From the IMG/VR virus record IMGVR_UViG_2648501873_000005: a stretch of DNA of 36,416 bases. One strand, 5' to 3'. Origin of the DNA: a virus. Taxonomy: Duplodnaviria; Heunggongvirae; Uroviricota; Caudoviricetes. The notes beneath the pieces are model-generated. The model searched no databases. It saw only the letters and a list, made by a program, of their open reading frames with translations, and was not told where the DNA came from. Below, piece after piece: positions 4,198 to 36,181 of this stretch; position 1 is the first letter of the stretch; each line of letters opens with the position of its first letter. Both the position numbers and the translations under genes were made by a program.

Positions 4198-6092
4198 ATG
4201 GCATTTAAACACTATGATGTTGTCAGGGCGGCGTCGCCGTCAGATCTTGCGGAAAAGCTGACACATAAACTGAAAGAGGGCTGGCAGCCGTTTGGTAGTC
4301 CGGTGGCCATAACCCCTTATACCCTGATGCAGGCGATTGCAGCAGAAGGTGATGTGGTCGTCAGTGGTGCAACTGAGCCGGAGTGGTACTACGTCATCGT
4401 ACTGGCCGGGCAATCCAATGCCATGGCTTACGGTGAAGGGCTTCCGCTTCCGGATTCTTACGATGCGCCCCACCCACGCATTAAGCAACTGGCCCGTCGC
4501 AACACAGTGACTCCCGGTGGTAAAGCATGCGCATTTAACGACATCATTCCGGCAGACCACTGCCTGCATGATGTTCAGGATATGAGCGCACTGAATCATC
4601 CGAAGGCAGACCTGAGCAAAGGGCAGTACGGCTGTGTCGGCCAGGGCTTACATATTGCCAAAAAACTGCTTCCGTATATCCCGAATAACGCGGGGATCCT
4701 GCTGGTACCATGCTGTCGTGGTGGTTCGGCATTCACCCAGGGCGCGGAGGGGACATTCAGTGCGGACACGGGGGCCAGCCAGGATTCGGCACGCTGGGGT
4801 GTGGGTAAACCGTTATATCAGGACCTGATCGCACGCACCAAAGCGGCATTACAGAAGAACCCGAAAAATGTGTTGCTGGCGGTGTGCTGGATGCAGGGCG
4901 AATTTGACATGAGCGCTGCCACCTACGCACAGCAACCGGACCTGTTCACGGCCATGCTGAAGCAGTTCCGTACTGACCTTTCCGGATTTAACGCGCAGTG
5001 CCATGGCGGCAGTGCTGCAGTTGTACCGTGGATTTGTGGCGACACGACGTATTACTGGAAAAACACATACGGCACACAGTATGACTCCGTCTACGGCGCG
5101 TACAAAAACAGGGAGAGCGACAACGTTTTCTTTGTGCCGTTCATGACCGACGGTAACGGCAACAACACGCCCACCAACTTACCGGCAGAAGACCCGGATA
5201 TTGCTGATGCAGGTTATTACGGCGCGCAATCCCGTAGTAATGGTAATTGGGTATCGTCAAATCGTCCGACACATTTCAGTTCATGGGCGCGCAGGGGCAT
5301 TATTTCGGATCGCCTGGCAACCGCTATTCTGAACGCAGTTGGTCGAACCAGCGCCTTCATCAGCGGTACCGCACCGGAGATTAAACCCTCGCCCGGCGGC
5401 GACACGCCATCGGGGCCGTCTGATGGTGACACATCCGTTCGTACAGTCTCCCTGCTGCCGACAGCCGGAGAGGCTGCTGCGCAGGGCTGGACCATCACCG
5501 GCGGCAGTGTTGCGCTGGAAGATGGTGTGTTTAAGGTTACCAAGCAGAGCAATAAAACCTGGTCCCTGATGCATCCGGTGGATGACGCAGTCTCCCTGCT
5601 GACACGGGGTGGCAGACTGAGCTGTAAGTTTCGACTGTCAGGCGCACTGACCAACAACCAGTTCGGTCTGGGAATTTATCTGTATACCGATGTAGCGTTA
5701 CCTGACGTCGTGGCGATGACCGGGACTGGTAACCCGTTCCTGATGTCGTGGCGATGACCGGGACTGGTAACCCGTTCCTGATGTCGTTCTTCACCCAGAC
5801 CACAGACGGCAAACTGAATCTGATGCATCACAAGAAAGCCGGAAACACAAAGTTGGGCGAGTTCGGGAATTACAGTAACGACTGGCAGACGCTGGAGCTG
5901 GTGTTCACCGCCGGCAGTGCCACGGTTACTCCGAAACTGAATGGAGTGGCTGGCCCGGCATTCCAGGTCATAAAAGACAGTCTGACACTGGGGCTGAATG
6001 CGCTGACGCTGACGGATATTACCAAAAATGCAGCGTATGGCGTTGAGATAGAAAGTCTGGTGCTGGAGATAAATGCACCGGCATCATCATAA
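4198..6092 (+). pseudogene. nanS-p: NanS-p-like esterase (DUF1737 N-domain plus SGNH/SASA sialate O-acetylesterase domain), frameshifted
   Basis: N-terminus MAFKHYDVVRAASPSDL and SASA-like block VIVLAGQSNAMAYGEG. The reading frame breaks at a 38-bp tandem duplication at 5707-5782, so the gene appears as two track ORFs (4183-5757 and 5748-6092). Family assignment from memory. Confidence 0.7.
5707..5782 (+). repeat. Perfect 38-bp tandem duplication (2 copies) inside the esterase gene
   Basis: GTCGTGGCGATGACCGGGACTGGTAACCCGTTCCTGAT occurs twice consecutively. 38 is not a multiple of 3, so it causes a frameshift. Confidence 0.9.
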
Positions 6093-26611: not shown

Positions 26612-29600
26612 ATGGGAAAAGGTGGCGGTAAGGCACACACGCCTCGTGAGGCGAAGGATAATCTCAAATCCACGCAGATGATGAGCGTGATTGATGCGAT
26701 TGGTGAGGGACCGATAGAAGGTCCGGTGAAGGGACTGCAGAGTATTCTGGTGAACAAAACCCCACTGACGGACACGGACGGCAATCCCGTGATACACGGT
26801 GTGACGGCGGTCTGGCGCGCCGGGGAGCAGGAGCAGACACCACCGGAAGGCTTTGAGTCCTCCGGAGCTGAAACCGGACTGGGCGTGGAAGTGACGAAGG
26901 CAAAACCGGTGACGCGCACCATTACGTCCGCGAACATTGACCGCCTGCGGGTTACCTTCGGGGTGCAGTCACTGGTGGAGACCACCTCAAAGGGTGACCG
27001 TAACCCGGCATCCGTCCGCCTGCTGATTCAGTTACAGCGTAACGGTAACTGGGTGACAGAAAAGGACGTCACCATTAACGGCAAGACCACCTCACAGTTC
27101 CTGGCCTCGGTGATTCTGGATAATCTGCCTCCCCGGCCCTTTAACATCCGGATGGTCAGGGAGACGGCGGACAGCACCACGGACCAGCTGCAGAATAAGA
27201 CGCTGTGGTCGTCATACACCGAAATCATCGATGTGAAACAGTGCTACCCGAACACGGCCATTGTGGGGCTGCAGGTGGATGCGGAGCAGTTCGGCGGCCA
27301 GCAGATGACGGTGAACTACCATATCCGCGGTCGCATCATCCAGGTGCCGTCAAACTATGACCCGGAAAAACGCACGTATAGTGGTATCTGGGACGGCAGT
27401 CTGAAACCGGCATACAGCAACAACCCGGCCTGGTGTCTGTGGGACATGCTGACTCACCCGCGCTACGGCATGGGAAAACGTCTGGGGGCGGCGGATGTGG
27501 ACAAGTGGGCGCTGTATGCCATCGGGCAGTACTGCGACCAGACGGTCCCGGATGGTTTCGGGGGGACCGAGCCGCGGATGACCTTTAATGCGTACCTGGC
27601 ACAACAGCGTAAGGCGTGGGACGTTCTCAGTGATTTCTGCTCTGCGATGCGCTGTATGCCGGTATGGAACGGTCAGACGCTGACGTTCGTTCAGGACCGC
27701 CCGTCGGATGTGGTGTGGCCGTACACCAACAGCGATGTGGTGGTGGATGATAACGGCGTGGGATTCCGCTACAGCTTCAGTGCCCTGAAGGACCGGCACA
27801 CGGCGGTGGAGGTGAATTACACCGACCCGCAGAACGGCTGGCAGACCTCCACGGAACTGGTGGAAGACCCGGAAGCCATACTGCGCTACGGACGCAACCT
27901 GCTGAAGATGGACGCGTTCGGCTGTACCAGCCGCGGTCAGGCCCACCGTGCCGGACTGTGGGTGATAAAGACCGAACTGCTGGAAACGCAGACGGTGGAT
28001 TTCACGCTCGGGTCTCAGGGGCTGCGGCACACACCCGGTGACATTATTGAAATCTGTGATAATGACTATGCCGGGACCCTGACCGGCGGACGTGTCCTGT
28101 CCATTGATGCTGCCACCCGCACCCTGACGCTGGACCGTGAGGTTACCCTGCCGGAGACAGGTACATCGGCGGTGAACCTGATTAACGGCAGCGGTAAGCC
28201 GGTGAGTGTGGACATCACCGCACACCCCGCGCCGGACCGGATACAGGTCAGTACCCTGCCTGATGGTGTGGAGACATACGGGGTGTGGGGACTCTCCCTG
28301 CCGTCACTGCGCCGTCGCCTGTTCCGCTGTGTCTCCATCCGGGAAAACACGGACGGCACCTTTGCCATCACGGCGGTGCAGCACGTACCGGAAAAAGAAG
28401 CCATCGTGGATAACGGTGCCCGCTTTGAGCCGCAGTCAGGTTCCCTGAACAGCGTCATCCCACCGGCAGTGCAGCACCTGACGGTGGAGGTGAGCGCAGC
28501 TGACGGCCAGTATCTGGCGCAGGCGAAATGGGACACGCCGCGGGTGGTGAAGGGTGTGCGCTTCAGTCTGCGCCTGACCAGTGGTAAGGGAACGGATGCC
28601 AGACTGGTGACCACCGCCATCACCGCAGACACGGAGCACCGTTTCAGCGGCCTGCCGCTCGGGGAATACACCCTGACGGTGCGGGCGATAAACAGCTATG
28701 GCCAGCAGGGTGAACCTGCCACCACCACCTTCCGGATTACCGCACCGGCAGCACCGTCGCGGATTGAGCTGACGCCGGGCTATTTTCAGATAACCGCAAC
28801 GCCACATCTTGCCGTTTATGACCCGACGGTACAGTTTGAGTTCTGGTTCTCGGAAAAGCGGATTGCGGATATCAGGCAGGTTGAAACCGCAGCCCGCTAT
28901 CTTGGCTCGGCGCTGTACTGGATAGCTGCCAGTATCAATATCAAACCGGGCCATGATTATTATTTTTATATCCGCAGTGTGAATACTGTTGGCAAATCGG
29001 CATTCGTGGAGGCTGTCGGTCGGGCGAGCGATGATGCGGAAGGTTACCTGGATTTTTTCAAAGGAGAAATCGGGAAAACACATCTGGCCCAGGAGCTGTG
29101 GACGCAGATTGATAACGGTCAGCTTGCGCCGGACCTGGCTGAAATCAGGACGTCCATTACGAATGTCAGCAATGAAATCACGCAGACCGTCAATAAAAAA
29201 CTGGAAAATCAGAGTGCGGCAATCCAGCAGATACAGAAAGTTCAGGTTGATACAAATAATAACCTGAACAGCATGTGGGCCGTGAAACTGCAGCAGATGC
29301 AGGACGGACGCCTTTATATTGCGGGTATCGGTGCCGGTATTGAGAATACGCCAGCAGGAATGCAGAGTCAGGTGCTGCTGGCGGCAGACAGGATTGCGAT
29401 GATTAATCCTGCGAATGGCAACACAAAGCCGATGTTTGTTGGTCAGGGCGATCAGATATTTATGAATGAAGTGTTCCTGAAATATCTGACGGCTCCCACC
29501 ATTACCAGCGGCGGTAATCCTCCGGCATTTTCCCTGACACCGGACGGGCGGCTGACGGCGAAAAATGCCGATATCAGCGGTAACGTGAATGCGAACTCCG

Positions 29601-30085
29601 GGACGCTCAACAACGTCACGATTAACGAGAACTGTCGGGTTCTGGGAAAATTGTCCGCGAACCAGATTGAAGGCGATCTCGTTAAAACAGTGGGCAAAGC
29701 TTTCCCCCGGGACTCCCGTGCACCGGAGCGGTGGCCATCAGGAACCATTACCGTCAGGGTTTATGACGATCAGCCGTTTGACCGGCAGATTGTTATTCCG
29801 GCGGTGGCATTCAGCGGCGCTAAACATGAGAAAGAGCATACTGATATTTACTCCTCATGCCGTCTGATAGTGCGGAAAAACGGTGCTGAAATTTATAACC
29901 GTACCGCGCTGGATAATACGCTGATTTACAGTGGTGTTATTGATATGCCTGCCGGTCACGGTCACATGACACTGGAGTTTTCGGTGTCAGCATGGCTGGT
30001 AAATAACTGGTATCCCACAGCAAGTATCAGCGATTTGCTGGTTGTGGTGATGAAGAAAGCCACTGCAGGCATCACGATTAGCTGA
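26612..30085 (+). CDS. J: Central tail fibre / host specificity protein J
   Basis: 1157 aa; N-terminus [22 protein letters not shown] and overall architecture match lambda J as recalled. Confidence 0.9.
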
Positions 30086-30152: not shown

Positions 30153-30752
30153 ATGCGTAAATTATGTGCTGTTATTTTGTCCGCAGTAGTCTGGCAGGTC
30201 GCCGCTGCTACGCCAGCGAGTGCAGCAGAACATCAGTCCACGCTGAGCGCGGGGTATCTCCATGCCTCGACGAACGTTCCCGGTAGTGATGATCTGAACG
30301 GGATTAACGTGAAATACCGTTATGAGTTTACGGACGCGCTGGGGCTGATTACGTCCTTCAGTTATGCCAATGCTGAGGATGAGCAAAAAACGCGCTACAG
30401 CGATACCCGCTGGCATGAAGATTCCGTGCGTAACCGCTGGTTCAGCGTGATGGCGGGGCCGTCTGTACGCGTGAATGAATGGTTCAGCGCGTATGCGATG
30501 GCGGGTGTGGCTTACAGCCGTGTGTCGACTTTCTCCGGGGATTATCTCCGCGTAACTGACAGCAAGGGGAAAACGCACGATGTGCTGACCGGAAGTGATG
30601 ACGGTCGCCACAGCAACACGTCTCTGGCGTGGGGGGCTGGCGTGCAGTTTAACCCGACCGAATCCGTGACCATTGACCTTGCTTATGAAGGTTCCGGTAG
30701 TGGCGACTGGCGAACGGATGCATTTATTGTTGGTATCGGATACCGTTTCTGA
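30153..30752 (+). CDS. lom: Outer-membrane protein Lom (Ail/Lom/OmpX family)
   Basis: 199 aa with signal peptide and alternating beta-strand pattern; C-terminal IVGIGYRF. Classic position after J. Confidence 0.85.
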   Translation: MRKLCAVILSAVVWQVAAATPASAAEHQSTLSAGYLHASTNVPGSDDLNGINVKYRYEFTDALGLITSFSYANAEDEQKTRYSDTRWHEDSVRNRWFSVMAGPSVRVNEWFSAYAMAGVAYSRVSTFSGDYLRVTDSKGKTHDVLTGSDDGRHSNTSLAWGAGVQFNPTESVTIDLAYEGSGSGDWRTDAFIVGIGYRF

Positions 30753-30855: not shown

Positions 30856-30890
30856 GAAGCCCGTGGCGTCACTGCTGCGGGCTTTTTTTA
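30856..30890 (+). terminator. Hairpin plus U-tract between lom and stf
   Basis: GCCCG..CGGGC stem followed by TTTTTTTATT. Confidence 0.45.
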
Positions 30891-30903: not shown

Positions 30904-33276
30904 ATGACAGTAAAAATTTCTGGCGTGCTTAAAGATGGCACAGGAAAACCAGTACAGAACTGCACCATTGTGCTGAAGGCCAGACGAACCAGCAGCACGG
31001 TGGTGGTGAACACGGTGGCCTCTGAAAATCCGGATGAAGCCGGACGTTACAGCATGGATGTTGAGCATGGTCAGTACAGCGTCACCCTGCTGGTTGAAGG
31101 TTTTCCGCCTTCACATGCCGGGACCATTACCGTCTATGAAGGTTCCAGACCAGGCACGCTGAATGATTTTCTCGGTGCCATGACGGAAGAGGATGTCATG
31201 CCGGAGGCATTGCGTCGTTTTGAGGTAATGGTGGAAGAAGCGGCACGCAACGCTGAAGCCGCCTCTCAGAGCGCAGCGGCGGCAAAGAAATCCGAAACTG
31301 CAGCGGCATCATCGAAGAACGCGGCGAAAAACTCAGAAACGAATGCAGCTAACAGCGCACAGGCGGCAGCGGCCTCGCAGACTGCATCGGCAAATTCCGC
31401 GACAGCAGCTAAAAAATCAGAAACCAACGCGAAAAATAGCGAGACAGCAGCAAAGACGAGCGAAACCAACGCAAAGTCCAGCCAGACGGCAGCGAAGGCC
31501 AGCGAAACGAATGCCAAAGCCAGTGAAACTGCGGCGAAAAACAGCCAGACTGCAGCAGCTGAGAGCGAGAGCGCAGCAGCCGGTTCTGCGACTTCAGCAG
31601 CTGGAGCAGCAACTGCTGCGGCTAACAGCCAGAAAGCAGCGAAGACGAGTGAAACTAACGCAAAGTCCAGCCAGACGGCAGCGAAGACCAGCGAAACGAA
31701 TGCCAAAGCCAGCGAAACTGCGGCGAAAAACAGCCAGGTTGCAGCAGCCCAAAGCGAGAGCGCGGCAGCTGGTTCTGCAAGCGCGGCGGCTGCTTCTGCC
31801 ACTGCATCAGCCAACAGTCAAAAAGCGGCAAAAACCAGTGAAACCAATGCAAAGACAAGCGAGACTGCAGCGGCGAACTCGGCGAAAGCATCGGCAGCAA
31901 GCCAGACAGCAGCTAAAGCAAGTGAAGACGCAGCCAGAGAGTATGCAAGTCAGGCAGCAGAGCCGTATAAATATGTCTTACAGCCACTGCCTGATGTGTG
32001 GATACCGTTTAACGATTCACTGGATATGATTACGGGCTTTTCGCCGTCATATAAAAAAATTGTTATTGGTGACGATGAAATAACGATGCCTGGCGACAAG
32101 ATTGTTAAGTTTAAACGTGCATCGAAAGCAACCTATATTAACAAATCTGGTGTGCTGACAGAGGCTGCCATTGACGAGCCACGATTTGAACGTGATGGCC
32201 TGCTTATTGAGGGGCAAAGAACAAACTACATGCTCAATTCGGAAAGCCCTGCCAGTTGGGGGCGATCGTCAAATATGGATGTGCCCGAAACAGGGACGGA
32301 TAATTTTGGTTTTACCTATGGAAAGTTTGTCTGCAACGATTCTCTGATTGGGCAAACCTCAGCCATTAATATGGCATCAATTGCTGCAACAAAGTCAGTT
32401 GATGTCTCAGGCGATAATAAACACGTGACAACCTCATGTCGTTTTAAAACAGAACTGCAGGTAAGGTTGCGTATCCGGTTTGATAAATATGACGGTAGCG
32501 CAACAACTTTTCTTGGTGATGCGTATATTGATACACAAACGCTTGAAATTAATATGACAGGCGGTGCTGCCTCAAGAATTACAGCGAGAGTCAGAAAGGA
32601 CGAAGCTACCGGATGGATTTTTGCAGAGGCAACAATTCAGGCAATTGATGGGGAGTTTAAAATAGGCTCTCAGATACAGTATTCTCCTAAGCAGAGCGGG
32701 GCAACCGTATCTGGTGACTATATTTATCTGGCCACCCCACAAGTAGAAGATGGGCCTTGTGTATCATCTTTTATTATATCAGGAGCGACGGCGGCGACCC
32801 GCGCAAGCGATATAGTTACAGTTCCAATTAAGAATAATCTTTATAATCTTCCTTTTACGGTTCTTTGTGAGGTACATAAGAACTGGTATAAAACGCCAAA
32901 TGCAGCGCCACGTGTTTTTGATACCGGCGGTCATCAAACCGGAGCGGCTATTATTCTTGGCTTCGGTCGTTCAACATATTACGACGGATTTCCTTATTGC
33001 GATATTGGAGGAGCTAACAGACGGGTAAACGAAAACGCATCGCTTGAAAAAATGGTTATGGGGATGCGTGTAAAGTCAGAGCAGTCTACGTGCTCAGTAA
33101 GTAACGGGCATATATCCAGCGAAACAAAAACCACATGGTCCTGTATTCGGAACACCGCAATTATCCGTATTGGAGGCCAGACTACAGCCGGGTTACGTCA
33201 TTTATTTGGTCATGTCAGGAATTTCAGAATATGGCACAAGGCATTGACTGATGCTCAGGTGGGGGAGTCAATCTAA
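30904..33276 (+). CDS. stf: Side tail fibre protein (Stf-like)
   Basis: 790 aa; conserved N-terminus MTVKISGVLKDGTGKPVQNCTI.., then an Ala/Ser/Thr-rich repeat region (SETNAK motifs) and a divergent C-terminal domain with lower GC. Confidence 0.8.
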   Translation: MTVKISGVLKDGTGKPVQNCTIVLKARRTSSTVVVNTVASENPDEAGRYSMDVEHGQYSVTLLVEGFPPSHAGTITVYEGSRPGTLNDFLGAMTEEDVMPEALRRFEVMVEEAARNAEAASQSAAAAKKSETAAASSKNAAKNSETNAANSAQAAAASQTASANSATAAKKSETNAKNSETAAKTSETNAKSSQTAAKASETNAKASETAAKNSQTAAAESESAAAGSATSAAGAATAAANSQKAAKTSETNAKSSQTAAKTSETNAKASETAAKNSQVAAAQSESAAAGSASAAAASATASANSQKAAKTSETNAKTSETAAANSAKASAASQTAAKASEDAAREYASQAAEPYKYVLQPLPDVWIPFNDSLDMITGFSPSYKKIVIGDDEITMPGDKIVKFKRASKATYINKSGVLTEAAIDEPRFERDGLLIEGQRTNYMLNSESPASWGRSSNMDVPETGTDNFGFTYGKFVCNDSLIGQTSAINMASIAATKSVDVSGDNKHVTTSCRFKTELQVRLRIRFDKYDGSATTFLGDAYIDTQTLEINMTGGAASRITARVRKDEATGWIFAEATIQAIDGEFKIGSQIQYSPKQSGATVSGDYIYLATPQVEDGPCVSSFIISGATAATRASDIVTVPIKNNLYNLPFTVLCEVHKNWYKTPNAAPRVFDTGGHQTGAAIILGFGRSTYYDGFPYCDIGGANRRVNENASLEKMVMGMRVKSEQSTCSVSNGHISSETKTTWSCIRNTAIIRIGGQTTAGLRHLFGHVRNFRIWHKALTDAQVGESI
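31260..31930 (+). repeat. Internal coding repeats in stf, including a 195-bp (65-aa) duplication
   Basis: Two near-identical 65-aa units (SETNAKSSQTAAK.SETNAKASETAAKNSQ..AAAGSA..ANSQKAAKT) beginning near 31447 and 31642, plus shorter SETNAK-type sub-repeats. Confidence 0.6.
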
Positions 33277-33557
33277 TGAAAGATTTAACACTCAAATTTG
33301 CCGACAGGGCCGACTTTTCGGCCTTTATGGAGAGTACTGGCTATTATGATGACGAGTCGATGCAGGATGATATTCTTATTGACGTGATAGGTAACGTGTA
33401 CAAAGAAACCGGAGAACTGACTGAAGATGGCGAACCGGTATGTGTTAAGGAAGACGGATATTTTGTAAACGTGCGCATCATTAATGATTCGCAAATATCG
33501 TCATTATTCGATGAATACGTGGTTGCTGTTGAGCATCAACTTCGTGGCTGGATGTGA
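33276..33557 (+). CDS. Small acidic hypothetical protein, translationally coupled to stf
   Basis: 93-aa ORF whose ATG overlaps the stf stop codon (TAATG). Confidence 0.4.
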   Translation: MKDLTLKFADRADFSAFMESTGYYDDESMQDDILIDVIGNVYKETGELTEDGEPVCVKEDGYFVNVRIINDSQISSLFDEYVVAVEHQLRGWM

Positions 33558-33566
33558 GGAAGAAAA

Positions 33567-34607
33567 ATGGCTACATCGACAGTAATTCCTGATGACATCA
33601 AAACGCTAAAATCCGACGTTAGCAAATTAAAAAACGATCAAGGAAGCTACGCAACAAAATTATATGTAGACAGCAAAGATGAAATCGTTGGTGACTGGTC
33701 TGCTTCATGGTATCAGCAGGTATTGCCAACTAGCGGAGCTATATTTGGGAGAAAACTCCGCTCAACTCACAGGACGGCAGGTGTTGAGGATGCGTATTGC
33801 GAACTATACCTCAAAAAATGGATAGACAGTCCAGGTAACGCAATGGCGCGCCTTAACCTGAACGATAACGGGACAAACATTTGCTGGGACTTTACCAACC
33901 TTTATGGCGGTACGATGATTTTTCCCGGTGACAGCGGATACCTCAAAATGGGTAACTGCCTTATGTCATACAGCAAGCGTGGAAGTAACGCGCTTATTAA
34001 ATTTGATTACACCGACACATTACAGATCAAATATGCCAATCATGGGTCAACCATGACATTAAACACACAGGGAACCGCTTATGCTGGTGTTACTGCTCAA
34101 TTGTGGGGCAACTCCAGCCGTCCTGTTGTTTATGAAGTCGGTGTTGATGGTGGCGCTTATATGTTCTATGCGCAGAAAAATACCGATAACACCTATATGT
34201 TAAGCGTTAATGGTGCATGTCATGCCACCGCATTTAACCAGCATTCCGACCGGGATCTGAAAGACAACATTCAGGTGATCGATAATGCAACCGACCGCAT
34301 CCGTAAAATGAACGGCTATACATACACGCTTAAAGAAAACGGTATGCCCTATGCTGGTGTCATTGCACAGGAAGCTCTGGAAGCAATCCCAGAAGTTGTA
34401 GGTTCCGTAATGAAATATCAGGACGGTGCGAGCGGATCGGAAGGTGAAGAAGGTGAACGTTATTACACAGTAGATTATTCTGGTGTTACTGGCTTGCTTG
34501 TTCAGGTAGCCAGAGAGTCAGACGACAGAATAACAGCACTGGAAGAAGAAAACGCAGAATTAAGACAAAGATTATCTGCAATTGATGCGGCGCTTGCGTC
34601 TAAATAA
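33567..34607 (+). CDS. Second tail fibre / tailspike-like protein with C-terminal peptidase S74 intramolecular chaperone domain
   Basis: 346 aa. C-terminal HSDRDLKDNIQVI..MNGYTYTLKENGMPYAGVIAQEALEAIPEVV..YYTVDYSGVTGLL..ALEEENAELRQRL matches the self-cleaving chaperone domain of endosialidases and L-shaped tail fibres. Confidence 0.65.
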   Translation: MATSTVIPDDIKTLKSDVSKLKNDQGSYATKLYVDSKDEIVGDWSASWYQQVLPTSGAIFGRKLRSTHRTAGVEDAYCELYLKKWIDSPGNAMARLNLNDNGTNICWDFTNLYGGTMIFPGDSGYLKMGNCLMSYSKRGSNALIKFDYTDTLQIKYANHGSTMTLNTQGTAYAGVTAQLWGNSSRPVVYEVGVDGGAYMFYAQKNTDNTYMLSVNGACHATAFNQHSDRDLKDNIQVIDNATDRIRKMNGYTYTLKENGMPYAGVIAQEALEAIPEVVGSVMKYQDGASGSEGEEGERYYTVDYSGVTGLLVQVARESDDRITALEEENAELRQRLSAIDAALASK

Positions 34608-34643
34608 TATTAAGGGGCCGAGCGCCCCGTTTTATTGGGTGGG

Positions 34644-34943
34644 ATGAAAATGGATATAACACCTTTCCTTCATGCGCTTTGTGCTGTGGCTGCGCAGCTA
34701 CTGATTGGTCTTTTTACCGGGAACTGGGCTTACGGGGCGATAGCCGGTTGTACGTTCTTCATTGCGCGTGAACACACCCAGGCAGAATATCGCTGGATCG
34801 AAATGTTCGGGCATGGCAAGCGAATGAATATGCCGTGGTGGGGCGGTTTTGATCCGCGCGCGTGGGATGTGGCAAGCCTGATGGATTTTGCTGTGCCGGT
34901 GGTGGCGTGTCTGCTGGTCTGGCTGTTGGTTAATCGTGGGTGA
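34644..34943 (+). CDS. Hypothetical membrane protein (about 100 aa)
   Basis: Two or three hydrophobic segments. Preceded by hairpin GGGGC..GCCCC plus T-run. Its stop codon abuts the tfa remnant. Start could be 34650. Confidence 0.4.
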   Translation: MKMDITPFLHALCAVAAQLLIGLFTGNWAYGAIAGCTFFIAREHTQAEYRWIEMFGHGKRMNMPWWGGFDPRAWDVASLMDFAVPVVACLLVWLLVNRG

Positions 34944-34953
34944 AAAAAGGTGA

Positions 34954-35082
34954 GCTGTATATGCAACGGAGGAAGAAACCTCGTTGCGGGAAGCCTGGAA
35001 GAAGTATCGGGTGTTGCTGAACCGTGTTGATACATCAACTGCACCTGATATTGAGTGGCCTACGAACCCTGTCAGGGAGTAA
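34954..35082 (+). pseudogene. 3' remnant of a tail fibre assembly (tfa) gene, last ~42 codons
   Basis: Translates to ..[39 protein letters not shown], nearly identical to the C-terminus of the complete Tfa-like ORF at 35862-36131. No start codon or N-terminal region. Confidence 0.55.
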
Positions 35083-35131
35083 TCATTGGGATTATGCCGC
35101 AGCACGTCTTAAGCAAGAACGTGCTGCGGTT
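34962..35131 (+). repeat. Direct repeat copy 1 (about 170 bp, tfa 3' end plus downstream hairpin)
   Basis: Matches 36012-36181 at high identity; includes the 10-bp inverted repeat CCGCAGCACG..CGTGCTGCGG. Confidence 0.7.
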
Positions 35132-35136
35132 GGATG

Positions 35137-35805
35137 CTATTTTTTCCCTGAAGCGGAAAACATTACTACAGTACCTTGAACCTTGGTTTTAACATTCTCG
35201 AAATGCTCTGAGAGTATATGTGTTAAGCCTTCTTCGGAATCTTTTGTGTTTGAAAAGATGCCTTTCTGATTGTAAATGCGCATCAGTTTTTGACCGAAGC
35301 TATTGTGCACAACTCCATCGCCAAGAATTGTGGCTCCGTATAGAGTTCCATCGTCAGTTAAGGCCTGCGCCGCATTGCGTATTACACAGCTTTTTGTAGA
35401 TATATTTCCAGGCAGGCAGTGAAGAAGGTAAAACATGGAAATGGAATCAAATTGACCATGTAACGCCGCGGGATAAGGTTCAAAAACATCATGGCTAATT
35501 TTATGTTTAATTTTTGATTCCCCAGCCCTTGTAGATGCCGCGTTCAGGCTAGCTTCGTTCAAATCCATTAAAGATATCAGACTACTCTCAGGTACGTGAG
35601 TAAGGTAAAACCCAGTTCCAACACCAATATCCAGATGGTTGTTACCTACATGTTCCAGAAAGTGTGGAAGAAGGTGTTCCTTTGTAGGACATCCCCATGC
35701 AAGCCGATTTGATACTCCCAAAACCCACCAGTCATAAAGCTTTAGGGTAAGTGGTGTGTAAATTTTAGCCCCATCATCTGTGTTTTTTTTCATTGATTTC
35801 ACCAT
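35137..35805 (-). CDS. Class I SAM-dependent methyltransferase in a low-GC island
   Basis: Minus-strand ORF of about 220 aa with Rossmann motif I HLDIGVGTGFYL and downstream acidic and hydrophobic motifs. Visibly AT-rich relative to flanks. Likely true start is the second ATG (plus 35793). Confidence 0.6.
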   Translation of the reverse strand: MVKSMKKNTDDGAKIYTPLTLKLYDWWVLGVSNRLAWGCPTKEHLLPHFLEHVGNNHLDIGVGTGFYLTHVPESSLISLMDLNEASLNAASTRAGESKIKHKISHDVFEPYPAALHGQFDSISMFYLLHCLPGNISTKSCVIRNAAQALTDDGTLYGATILGDGVVHNSFGQKLMRIYNQKGIFSNTKDSEEGLTHILSEHFENVKTKVQGTVVMFSASGKK

Positions 35806-35861: not shown

Positions 35862-36131
35862 ATGCTGCCGCAGCATAGCGATATTGAAATAGCCTGGTAT
35901 GCTTCGATACAGCAGGAGCCGAATGGCTGGAAGACCGTCACCACACAGTTCTACATCCAGGAATTCAGTGAGTATATTGCGCCACTGCAGGATGCTGTAG
36001 ATCTGGAAATCGCAACGGAGGAAGAAAGATCGTTGCTGGAGGCATGGAATAAATATCGGGTATTGTTGAATCGTGTTGATACATCAACTGCACCTGATAT
36101 TGAGTGGCCTGCAAATCCTGTCAGGGAGTAA
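35862..36131 (+). CDS. Tail fibre assembly protein (Tfa) C-terminal-domain protein
   Basis: 89 aa ending ..[37 protein letters not shown] ribosome-binding site. Confidence 0.55.
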
Positions 36132-36181
36132 TCATTGGGATTATGCCGCAGATACGTCGTATGCAGGAACGTGCTGCGGTT
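36012..36181 (+). repeat. Direct repeat copy 2
   Basis: Matches 34962-35131. Confidence 0.7.

What the first reader, a model, noticed from the sequence alone, without database searches (positions are those of the whole stretch)
33276..34607. Second tail-fibre locus: acidic small ORF coupled to stf, then a short fibre with a self-cleaving S74 chaperone domain
Downstream of stf there is a 93-aa acidic ORF overlapping the stf stop, then a 346-aa protein whose C-terminal ~110 aa match the peptidase S74 intramolecular chaperone domain, including the HSD cleavage context. Its ~230-aa N-terminal part is small and low-GC, so it is probably a recently exchanged receptor-binding or depolymerase-like module without the usual N-terminal anchor. 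This raises the question of how it attaches to the virion.
Basis: partly seen in the sequence, partly recalled or inferred. Interest (0 to 1): 0.45.

Follow-up and report, generated by a model that had tools for sequence, protein, structure and literature searches.

The report
Three-gene composite side tail fibre
The small acidic gene and the short self-cleaving fibre gene are probably not a second fibre locus but the outer parts of the same side tail fibre, a three-gene module shared by many E. coli phages, so the finding is real but largely ordinary.

Summary
orf93 (33276-33557, pI 4.05) starts on the last base of the stf stop codon (TAATG). orf346 (33567-34607) has a Peptidase_S74 chaperone domain (aa 227-278, E 4.8e-14) with Ser227 and Lys232 spaced like the T5 pb1 cleavage residues.

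The window is a lambdoid E. coli prophage (99% to phage 2G7b). The low-GC block is not just the front of orf346. It runs from stf residue ~360 through orf93 to the end of orf346.

The same trio (long fibre with this C-terminal domain, ~90-aa protein with overlapping start, S74 fibre) occurs in T5-like, T1-like, Nonagvirus and lambdoid phages. That includes IrisVonRoten Gp22/23/24, where the distal fibre was modelled as attached to the proximal one.

orf346 does have an anchor: a conserved ~26-aa N-terminal plug (M-x-T-x-T-x-I-P-x-D-I-T/K-x-L-K). In my sample this plug is found only downstream of orf93 homologues. Nothing suggests a depolymerase.

Stf carries its own variable glycan-binding head (GTA head-spike-fibre domain). 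So the fibre probably has two exchangeable receptor-binding cassettes around a conserved joint.

orf93's role (joint or assembly factor) is unresolved. Verdict: new member of a known kind, modest interest.

The parts
30856..30885 (+). Terminator-like hairpin between lom and stf, the upstream boundary of the stf-orf93-orf346 unit
   Evidence: 13-bp stem followed by a T-run.
30904..33276 (+). stf, the proximal side tail fibre (790 aa). Residues 1-131 are the virion-attachment domain, ~110-350 an Ala-rich repeat shaft, and ~361-790 an exchanged low-GC C-terminal head.
   Evidence: PF08400 phage_tail_N at residues 1-131, E 6e-67. PHROG 1419 end to end. GC 55% for residues 1-360 against 44% for 361-790.
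32224..33183 (+). Variable cassette 1: Stf residues 441-760. It contains the GTA head-spike-fibre-like domain (residues 434-634) and is the putative glycan-binding head of Stf.
   Evidence: NCBIfam NF048003 GTA_spike_fiber, E 2.5e-13, 51 bits against a cut-off of 36. RcGTA Rcc01080 (PDB 6tb9), E 1.4e-8. Mean identity to the window's Stf falls from 0.9 or more to 0.60-0.79 here across 69 distinct Stf alleles. The whole C-terminal part is 41-100% identical between loci.
33184..33273 (+). Conserved last 30 residues of Stf (TAGLRHLFGHVRNFRIWHKALTDAQVGESI), the end of a weak LamG/ConA-like match and one side of the conserved joint
   Evidence: Identity returns to 0.86-0.91. The same motif is present in T5-like, T1-like, Nonagvirus, rV5-like and lambdoid fibres. 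Laminin_G_3 at Stf residues 735-786, E 0.009, below the Pfam cut-off.
33276..33557 (+). orf93: acidic 93-aa protein translationally coupled to stf (TAATG). Conserved partner of the Stf C-terminal head, acting as joint or assembly factor.
   Evidence: PHROG 1361 of unknown function. No Pfam or NCBIfam match. 92-100% identical across 80 prophage loci while its neighbours vary. AlphaFold pLDDT 86.8, alpha/beta sandwich. No informative structural neighbour.
33556..33562 (+). Shine-Dalgarno-like GAGGAAG for orf346, overlapping the orf93 stop codon
   Evidence: Read directly from the sequence.
33567..33644 (+). orf346 residues 1-26: the conserved N-terminal 'plug' (MATSTVIPDDIKTLKSDVSKLKNDQG). A short strand is followed by a helix with I11/L14/V18/L21 at 3-4-3 spacing.
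   Evidence: Most conserved part of the mature protein. The motif is shared by distal fibres of six phage lineages. 120 of 120 IMG/VR occurrences lie directly after an orf93 homologue. A query taken from the IrisVonRoten homologue Gp24 (residues 1-70) matches fibres of phages lacking the trio only from residue 27-29 onward. Helix 11-28 in the model.
33657..33881 (+). Variable cassette 2: orf346 residues 31-105, the putative receptor-contacting beta domain
   Evidence: Highest column entropy among 58 distinct 346-aa homologues. Beta strands 58-118 with pLDDT about 80.
33882..34244 (+). orf346 residues 106-226: conserved beta-structured fibre body ending at His226, the predicted C-terminus of the mature protein
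   Evidence: Conserved. The family profile matches T4 gp34 (5nxf, 4uxe, 9x3r) at E 2.5e-9 to 4.5e-8. Matches the C-terminal ends of 1200-1570-aa fibre families.
34245..34607 (+). orf346 residues 227-346 plus stop codon: S74 intramolecular chaperone with scissile Ser227 and Lys232, followed by a C-terminal helix
   Evidence: PF13884, E 4.8e-14. Ser227 and Lys232 are each conserved in at least 90% of sequences. S16 gp37 chaperone 6f45, E 7.6e-4 with the single sequence and 3e-7 with the profile. Helix 304-345 in the model. Same Ser/Lys spacing as T5 pb1 Ser1264/Lys1269 (PMC4690869).
34614..34636 (+). Intrinsic-terminator-like hairpin GGGGCCGAGCGCCCC followed by GTTTTATT, closing the fibre unit

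Best explanation
stf, orf93 and orf346 together encode one composite side tail fibre.

- Stf trimers attach to the tail tip through the lambda-type N-terminal domain and extend through an Ala-rich shaft. They end in their own variable lectin-like head, made of a GTA head-spike-fibre domain plus a possible LamG-like end (a sub-threshold match).
- orf346 is a short distal (or branch) fibre. Its C-terminal S74 domain is expected to trimerise and fold the beta-structured body, then cut itself off between His226 and Ser227. That would leave a 226-residue (25 kDa) mature subunit.
- The mature trimer would be held on the virion by its conserved ~26-residue N-terminal plug: a short strand plus a two-heptad coiled coil. 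The plug would dock onto the conserved joint formed by the end of Stf together with orf93.
- Residues 31-105 of orf346 and residues 441-760 of Stf are two independently exchangeable receptor-binding cassettes. The target is most likely surface glycan, as for the lateral fibres of related siphoviruses.
- orf93 is made in step with Stf through translational coupling. I take it to be a stoichiometric partner of the Stf C-terminal head, needed for its assembly and forming part of the socket for the plug.

Shown here: gene structure, domain identities, synteny, conservation pattern and co-occurrence.

Inferred: physical docking, cleavage, glycan binding and the role of orf93.
For: 1. One unit. There is no terminator-like site between the three genes, and there are terminator-like hairpins on both sides. 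The junctions are a TAATG overlap and a 9-nt gap carrying an SD sequence.
2. The same trio in the same order, with overlapping or adjacent start and stop codons:
   - Nonagvirus JenP1 gp23-25 and ESCO3 78-80;
   - T5-like SIA3lw 42-44, AKFV33 orf137-135 and IrisVonRoten 22-24;
   - Drexlerviridae tinuso 68-66 and KarlJaspers 37-35.
3. The low-GC block spans Stf residues above ~360, orf93 and orf346.
4. Conservation pattern. Stf 441-760 and orf346 31-105 vary. Stf 761-790, orf93 and orf346 1-30 stay conserved.
5. Plug.
   - Otherwise unrelated distal proteins (346, 351, 224-234, 557-580 aa) share the motif M-x-T-x-T-x-I-P-x-D-I-T/K-x-L-K.
   - In 120 of 120 IMG/VR hits the motif follows an orf93 homologue, and 119 of 120 also have the Stf C-terminal domain upstream.
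   - The 70-aa N-terminus of the IrisVonRoten distal fibre matches full-length only in phages carrying the trio. In DT57C LtfA, ManiWeber, phiKT and others it matches only from residue 27-29.
6. S74 domain with a conserved Ser227/Lys232 pair. The spacing is the same as in the cleavage site shown experimentally for T5 pb1 (PMC4690869).
7. Literature.
   - The BASEL authors modelled IrisVonRoten Gp24 as attached to proximal fibre Gp22, which has a galectin-like C-terminal domain (PMC11990801).
   - The Stf homologue of AKFV33 (ORF137) was found in virions by mass spectrometry, and that phage's fibre was proposed to consist of two proteins (PMC3326045).
   - A short conserved N-terminus mediates branch-fibre attachment in DT57C and phiEco32 (PMC4728585).
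8. The Stf head is a GTA_spike_fiber domain. A paper on the RcGTA head spike fibre and tail fibre as receptor-binding proteins for an extracellular polysaccharide receptor was listed (PMC10218006, title and abstract start only).
Against: - No complex could be modelled and there are no experimental data for this phage. Docking, and the exact socket, are inferred only from co-occurrence and conservation.
- The conserved joint could also be conserved merely as a recombination linker between cassettes.
- Phage 21, 1H12 and ev243 keep stf and an orf93 homologue but have no distal fibre gene. So orf93 is not simply a connector for the distal fibre.
- The distal-fibre homologue was not among the four AKFV33 virion proteins identified.
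- Some prophage copies of the distal gene are truncated or split, so it is dispensable at least in prophages.
Confidence: 0.6

Rival explanations
1. orf93 is only a non-structural folding chaperone for the Stf C-terminal head, playing the role that Tfa plays for lambda Stf. It is absent from virions, and the distal fibre plugs directly into Stf. The composite-fibre picture otherwise stands.
For: - orf93 sits where tail-fibre assembly genes normally sit, immediately after stf with translational coupling.
- Stf has no S74 domain, and no intact tfa follows it; only tfa remnants remain.
- orf93 homologues persist in phages without any distal fibre: phage 21, 1H12 and ev243.
- The family is always a stand-alone ~90-aa protein and is never fused to a fibre.
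Against: - orf93 stays 92-100% identical while the Stf head it would fold varies from 41 to 100% identity. From general knowledge, dedicated fibre chaperones usually co-vary with their client tips.
- It has no sequence or structural similarity to known fibre chaperones.
Confidence: 0.3
2. One reading: orf346 is an independent second fibre or receptor-binding (possibly depolymerase-like) protein. It was recently acquired, lacks an anchor, and attaches to the virion by an unknown route unrelated to Stf.
For: - orf346 is a separate gene with its own SD sequence.
- It is short and low in GC.
- Residues 92-337 resemble the C-terminal ends of much longer fibres.
Against: - The N-terminal plug is conserved and strictly linked to orf93 and the Stf head.
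- The trio is syntenic in five phage groups.
- The low GC covers the whole module.
- There is no enzyme family hit and no beta-helix.
Confidence: 0.05
3. orf346 is non-functional cargo: a captured C-terminal piece of a larger fibre gene that is expressed but not incorporated, and is decaying in prophages.
For: Truncated or split copies exist: PhiR47_1 has 294 + 37 aa, and several IMG/VR loci have ORFs of 90, 157, 189 or 194 aa. Related lambdoid phages manage without it.
Against: - The copy here is intact, and the catalytic residues are conserved.
- The same-sized gene is kept in virulent phages JenP1 and ESCO3.
- A place covering at least 80% of the 33000-35200 query, mostly at 99% identity or more among the listed hits, is present in 445 of 5426 complete E. 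coli genomes.
- Variation is concentrated in one domain rather than scattered.
Confidence: 0.05

Closest known systems
Lateral tail fibre of T5-like phage IrisVonRoten (Bas32): Gp22 proximal fibre, Gp23, Gp24 distal fibre (PMC11990801)
   Same: The three-gene module is homologous and in the same order. The proximal fibre ends in the same C-terminal head, and Gp23 is an orf93 homologue (38% identity, E 3e-16). The distal fibre starts with the same plug motif and, according to the paper, ends in an intramolecular chaperone. The authors modelled the distal fibre as attached to the proximal one and noted a galectin-like domain protruding from the proximal fibre's C-terminus.
   Different: There the module sits on a virulent T5-like phage, whose fibre attachment involves a lateral tail fibre assembly protein (bas32_0021). 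Here it is grafted onto a lambda-type Stf N-terminus in a temperate phage. Gp24 is 574 aa and T-shaped with two receptor-binding domains, whereas orf346 is 346 aa with one variable domain. In the passages I read, the paper assigns no role to Gp23.
T5 L-shaped tail fibre pb1 and K1F endosialidase: the S74 intramolecular chaperone (PMC4690869)
   Same: A C-terminal S74 domain with a scissile Ser and a Lys five residues later. The chaperone folds a trimeric beta-structure and is then released.
   Different: pb1 (1396 aa) is a single polypeptide that attaches to the tail through its own N-terminus. orf346 is a 226-aa mature piece that needs a carrier fibre. No sequence match to the pb1 tip was found.
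Branched fibres of DT57C (LtfA/LtfB) and phiEco32 (gp14/gp15) (PMC4728585, PMC10713586)
   Same: The same principle applies. A second fibre protein with no homology to tail proteins is carried by the first, and the attachment determinant is a short conserved N-terminal segment (45 aa in LtfB).
   Different: The plug and socket differ. There is no orf93-like gene between ltfA and ltfB. The DT57C fibre shares only residues 27-70 of the IrisVonRoten-type distal fibre, inside LtfA.
Phage lambda Stf-Tfa side tail fibre
   Same: The N-terminal domain (PF08400) and its position after J and lom are the same. The fibre is presumably accessory and speeds adsorption (general knowledge).
   Different: The C-terminal half has been replaced. 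No intact tfa remains, only two remnants of its 3' end. Assembly presumably depends on orf93 and the S74 domain instead of Tfa.
RcGTA head spike fibre Rcc01080 (GhsB; PDB 6tb9)
   Same: Stf residues 434-634 belong to the same domain family. A paper on RcGTA's polysaccharide receptor and its receptor-binding proteins was listed (PMC10218006).
   Different: In RcGTA the domain sits on a capsid spike. Here it forms the head of a tail fibre. The small gene upstream of the homologous RcapMu fibre is unrelated to orf93.

Membership tests
Peptidase S74 / intramolecular-chaperone tail fibres (PF13884) | Profile match above the curated threshold | tested here: met
   52.8 bits against a cut-off of 22, E 4.8e-14, residues 227-278 covering 57 of 58 model positions.
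Peptidase S74 / intramolecular-chaperone tail fibres (PF13884) | Scissile Ser with the activating Lys five residues downstream | tested here: met
   Ser227 and Lys232 are each conserved in at least 90% of 52 homologues. T5 pb1 uses Ser1264 and Lys1269 (PMC4690869).
Peptidase S74 / intramolecular-chaperone tail fibres (PF13884) | Mixed alpha/beta region followed by a long C-terminal helix (trimeric coiled coil) | tested here: inconclusive
   The monomer model has helix 304-345 at pLDDT 81-89. Residues 226-280 are below pLDDT 50, as expected when an intertwined trimer is modelled as a single chain.
Peptidase S74 / intramolecular-chaperone tail fibres (PF13884) | Autoproteolytic release of the chaperone after trimer folding | not testable with these tools
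   Needs expression of the wild type and a Ser227Ala mutant, followed by SDS-PAGE or mass spectrometry.
Lambda-type side tail fibre (Stf) | N-terminal 'prophage tail fibre N-terminal' domain, with the gene located after J and lom | tested here: met
   PF08400, E 6e-67, residues 1-131. Gene order J, lom, stf.
Lambda-type side tail fibre (Stf) | Dedicated Tfa (Caudo_TAP) assembly protein encoded directly downstream | tested here: not met
   The gene after stf is orf93, which has no Caudo_TAP match. Only an 89-aa tfa remnant (35862-36131) and a 32-aa fragment (34984-35082) remain further downstream.
Three-gene composite lateral tail fibre (IrisVonRoten Gp22-24 / AKFV33 ORF137-135 type) | Proximal fibre ending in the GTA-spike-fibre/LamG-like head with the RIGGQT...LFGH(V/I)RN(F/L)RIW motif | tested here: met
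   tblastn finds the Stf head in 219 phage records. Identity is 33-68% to the T5-like fibres listed, for example AKFV33 33% and SIA3lw 68%. The C-terminal motif aligns.
Three-gene composite lateral tail fibre (IrisVonRoten Gp22-24 / AKFV33 ORF137-135 type) | A ~90-aa orf93-family gene whose start overlaps or abuts the stop of the proximal fibre gene | tested here: met
   TAATG here. Homologues occupy the same position in JenP1, ESCO3, SIA3lw, AKFV33, tinuso, KarlJaspers and IrisVonRoten.
Three-gene composite lateral tail fibre (IrisVonRoten Gp22-24 / AKFV33 ORF137-135 type) | Distal protein with the N-terminal plug motif and a C-terminal S74 chaperone | tested here: met
   The motif was compared across 10 distal proteins. 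S74 was also confirmed in the 234-aa allele. SIA3lw 44 and ESCO3 80 carry S74/endosialidase-chaperone annotations.
Three-gene composite lateral tail fibre (IrisVonRoten Gp22-24 / AKFV33 ORF137-135 type) | Physical attachment of the distal fibre to the proximal fibre in the virion | not testable with these tools
   Only single chains can be modelled here. For the homologue, the published evidence I read is an AlphaFold-Multimer model (PMC11990801).
Tailspike / capsule or O-antigen depolymerase | Beta-helix or other glycanase catalytic domain in the mature part | tested here: not met
   No Pfam family for residues 1-226 even at E 10. The model shows short strands and a helix, not a beta-helix. 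The best profile matches are T4 gp34 fibre shaft.

The most novel reading that the evidence does not exclude
orf93, the last ~30 residues of Stf and the ~26-residue N-terminal plug of the distal fibre form a previously undescribed universal plug-and-socket joint. It is shared by temperate lambdoid phages and by virulent T1-like, T5-like and Nonagvirus phages. It lets two receptor-binding cassettes be swapped independently between phage families. In that case orf93 would be a new class of structural fibre-joint protein rather than a chaperone, and the plug would be a portable tag for hanging new receptor-binding proteins on these phages.
Probability: 0.3. Interest if true: 0.55.

Novelty: new member of a known kind. 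Interest (0 to 1): 0.3.

Why it matters
The most likely answer is a conserved N-terminal plug on a joint at the end of Stf, as already proposed from modelling for a homologous T5-like phage.

It also shows that a common E. coli prophage type probably carries a two-headed side fibre. A place covering at least 80% of the 33000-35200 query is present in 445 of 5426 complete genomes. The two heads appear to exchange independently with virulent phages, which bears on prophage host range and on engineering lambda-based particles.

The one open item is the 93-aa protein. It is widespread among Escherichia and Salmonella phages, well conserved and confidently folded, yet I found no assigned function for it.

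Tried and rejected
3. Search for fusions of orf93 to fibre proteins among 1.84 billion representative proteins. There were 51 hits, all stand-alone proteins of about 90-120 aa apart from three long repetitive proteins whose matches look spurious. So no Rosetta-stone clue emerged.
4. The idea that orf93 corresponds to the small gene next to the RcGTA-type fibre in RcapMu. An HMM search found no similarity.
5. A genome-contig scan for orf93. Only Escherichia species were hit, plus one probably mis-binned MAG contig and one chance hit. The first attempt failed because the alignment was too diverse.
6. Sequence match of orf346 to the T5 pb1 tip. None was found, either with the single sequence or with the profile.
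7. Virion proteomics for a homologue of the distal fibre or of orf93. The AKFV33 paper reports only the Stf homologue.

Full report
**What is in the sequence**

The window is the late region of a lambdoid E. coli prophage. Bases 33000-35200 are 99.2% identical to Escherichia phage 2G7b (genus Nesevirus) and 100% identical to several E. coli chromosomes. In 445 of 5426 complete E. coli genomes one place covers at least 80% of this stretch.

The gene order is J (26612-30085), lom (30153-30752), stf (30904-33276), orf93 (33276-33557), orf346 (33567-34607). After these come a small membrane-protein gene, a methyltransferase gene on the opposite strand, and tfa remnants.

- The ATG of orf93 shares its A with the last base of the stf stop codon (TAATG).
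- orf346 follows 9 nt after orf93, behind a GAGGAAG Shine-Dalgarno-like sequence.
- A GC-rich hairpin with a T-run follows it at 34614-34636.
- The terminator scan finds hairpins after J, after lom and after orf346, but none at the gene junctions between stf, orf93 and orf346.

So the three genes look like one expression unit.

**Check of the observation**

- orf93 is acidic: 21 Asp+Glu against 7 Lys+Arg, pI 4.05.
- orf346 matches Pfam PF13884 (Peptidase_S74, 'chaperone of endosialidase') at residues 227-278, with 52.8 bits against a cut-off of 22.
- The context NQH|SDRDLKDNI places Ser227 and Lys232 five residues apart. T5 pb1 has the same spacing (Ser1264, Lys1269), and there cleavage at Thr1263|Ser1264 was shown experimentally (PMC4690869).
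- Ser227 through Lys232 are each conserved in at least 90% of a 52-sequence alignment.
- The predicted products are a 226-residue (24.9 kDa) mature fibre subunit and a 120-residue released chaperone.

orf93 is a real gene. It has homologues in 181 phage records, dN/dS of about 0.33 across 65 alleles, and a confident AlphaFold model (pLDDT 86.8).

| Segment | GC |
|---|---|
| stf residues 1-360 | 55% |
| stf residues 361-790 | 44% |
| orf93 | 42% |
| orf346, mature part | 44% |
| orf346, S74 part | 45% |

The foreign block is therefore about 2.6 kb and starts in the middle of stf. Downstream there is an 89-aa remnant of tfa. A ~170-nt direct repeat of the tfa 3' end also flanks the methyltransferase gene. 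This fits replacement of an ancestral lambda-type stf C-terminus and tfa by the present module.

**The same three-gene module occurs in very different phages**

The module is a long fibre gene ending in the same C-terminal domain, then a gene of about 90 aa whose start overlaps or abuts its stop, then a fibre gene. I found it in:

- virulent Nonagvirus phages JenP1 (gp23-25) and ESCO3 (78-80);
- T5-like phages SIA3lw (42-44), AKFV33 (orf137-135) and IrisVonRoten (bas32_0022-0024);
- Drexlerviridae tinuso (68-66) and KarlJaspers (37-35);
- many lambdoid phages.

By tblastn the Stf C-terminal domain is present in 219 phage records and orf93 in 181. In one-genome-per-species bacterial genomes, orf93 turns up only in Escherichia.

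The literature already treats such loci as multi-protein lateral fibres.

- The first BASEL paper notes that lateral fibres can be one polypeptide or two or more proteins (PMC8594841).
- The second BASEL paper shows an AlphaFold-Multimer model in which IrisVonRoten Gp24 attaches to proximal fibre Gp22. Gp24 has a T5-like receptor-binding domain plus an intramolecular chaperone. Gp22's C-terminus carries a protruding galectin-like domain (PMC11990801).
- The AKFV33 authors predicted a fibre of two proteins and found the Stf homologue in virions (PMC3326045).

**orf346 does have an anchor**

I compared 80 IMG/VR prophage loci that carry orf93.

- orf93 stays 92-100% identical.
- The Stf C-terminal part ranges from 41 to 100% identity.
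- The gene after orf93 is either the 346-aa type or a 227-234-aa type that shares only about the first 20 residues. The short type also has an S74 domain (residues 116-172).

Across phage families, distal proteins of 224 to 580 aa all begin M-x-T-x-T-x-I-P-x-D-I-T/K-x-L-K.

A back-translated pattern for this motif found 120 places in IMG/VR. All 120 have an orf93 homologue immediately upstream. In 119 of them the Stf head lies further upstream; the remaining locus has too little upstream sequence to tell. These loci are homologous prophages, so this result shows tight linkage rather than independent events.

The more independent test is. The first 70 residues of the IrisVonRoten distal fibre match full-length only in phages that carry the trio. 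In fibres of phages without it (DT57C LtfA, ManiWeber, phiKT and others) the match starts at residue 27-29. So the first ~26 residues form a separate module that appears only where orf93 and the Stf head lie upstream.

In the model, residues 11-28 are a helix with I11, L14, V18 and L21 at heptad-like spacing, preceded by a short extended segment. A short conserved N-terminus that mediates attachment of a branch fibre has a precedent in DT57C LtfB and phiEco32 gp15 (PMC4728585).

**Two variable cassettes around a conserved joint**

Along Stf (69 distinct alleles), residues 1-440 and 761-790 are conserved and residues 441-760 are variable.

Along the 346-aa type (58 distinct proteins):

- residues 1-30 are conserved;
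- residues 31-105 are variable;
- residues 106-226 are conserved;
- the chaperone is very conserved.

The conserved block is therefore the end of Stf, orf93 and the plug, with a variable domain on either side.

Stf residues 434-634 are a GTA_spike_fiber domain (NF048003, E 2.5e-13, above the cut-off; RcGTA Rcc01080, PDB 6tb9, E 1.4e-8). A paper on RcGTA's extracellular polysaccharide receptor and its head-spike-fibre and tail-fibre receptor-binding proteins was listed (PMC10218006); I read only its title and the start of its abstract. The last part of Stf gives a weak, sub-threshold LamG/ConA-like match.

The conserved body of orf346 before the cleavage site matches T4 gp34 fibre shaft (E about 1e-9). 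Nothing in residues 1-226 resembles a glycanase.

**What orf93 does remains open**

It is a stand-alone family that is never fused to a fibre. It has no Pfam or NCBIfam match. It folds as a small alpha/beta sandwich without informative neighbours.

Two observations pull in different directions.

- Phage 21, 1H12 and ev243 keep stf and an orf93 homologue but have no distal fibre gene. This ties orf93 to Stf rather than to the distal fibre.
- orf93 does not co-vary with the variable head of Stf. That would be unusual for a dedicated folding chaperone.

I favour a stoichiometric partner of the conserved end of Stf that helps it assemble and forms part of the socket. A purely non-structural chaperone is a serious rival (0.3).

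**Verdict**

The finding is real. It is best read as the outer two-thirds of one composite side tail fibre, not as a second locus with an anchorless protein. The architecture is homologous to lateral fibres already described for T5-like phages, here grafted onto a lambda-type Stf. That makes it a new member of a known kind. The unexplained part, and the only one with some novelty, is the conserved 93-aa protein and the plug-and-socket joint it may belong to.

Noticed in passing
window 34963-35131 and 36012-36181; also 35137-35805 (minus strand) and 35862-36131: A direct repeat of about 170 nt (89-91% identical) made of the 3' end of tfa (tail fibre assembly gene). One copy lies just upstream of the SAM-dependent methyltransferase gene on the opposite strand. 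The other overlaps the end of the 89-aa tfa remnant (Caudo_TAP positions 75-130) downstream of it. This looks like a moron inserted into, or duplicated with, the old tfa gene after the stf C-terminus was replaced.
   Followed up: partly
window 34635-34943: A 102-aa predicted membrane protein (PHROG 1443, function unknown) sits right after the fibre terminator and travels with the module. In phage 21, 1H12 and ev243 it directly follows the orf93 homologue. In the P22-like phage 611R6 it lies next to a 37-aa remnant of the S74 domain, downstream of the tailspike and an O-acetylase. It could be a lysogenic-conversion or exclusion gene, or simply a recombination junction.
   Followed up: partly
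L030 and about 44 other IMG/VR loci; tinuso_66 (L089 5967-6641); KarlJaspers bas06_0035 (L091 4270-4947): An alternative, minimal distal fibre allele of 224-234 aa. It has the same N-terminal plug, then a coiled coil, a very short body and an S74 domain from residue 116, so the mature protein would be only about 115 residues. In KarlJaspers it is annotated 'putative lateral tail fiber chaperone', which probably comes from the Pfam name of the S74 domain.
   Followed up: partly
L003 (PhiR47_1) 5020-5904 and 5947-6060; several IMG/VR loci with ORFs of 90, 157, 189 or 194 aa; L217 (phage 4A7) 917-3333: Damaged copies of the module exist. The distal gene is split within its chaperone domain in PhiR47_1 and truncated in some prophages. 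In phage 4A7 three transposase genes occupy the place of most of stf, leaving orf93 intact.
   Followed up: no
window 31230-31950 (stf residues ~110-350): The Ala/Ser/Thr/Lys-rich repeat region of stf (units such as KTSETNAKASETAAKNSQ) has an extreme AT skew, up to 0.65. It produces several long spurious ORFs in other frames and on the opposite strand. The Stf homologues in phage 21, 1H12 and ev243 are about 100 residues shorter, possibly through fewer repeats.
   Followed up: no
phage records OR848352 (Listeria phage LM 4-14-1), MG065652/666/635/692 (Campylobacter phages), and L214 (Collinsella MAG contig): Records labelled as Listeria or Campylobacter phages, and a contig binned as Collinsella, carry close homologues of this E. 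coli phage fibre module. Some of the Campylobacter records are comparable in size to rV5-like coliphages, and their Stf-head matches are about as strong. These labels are probably host or binning errors.
   Followed up: no
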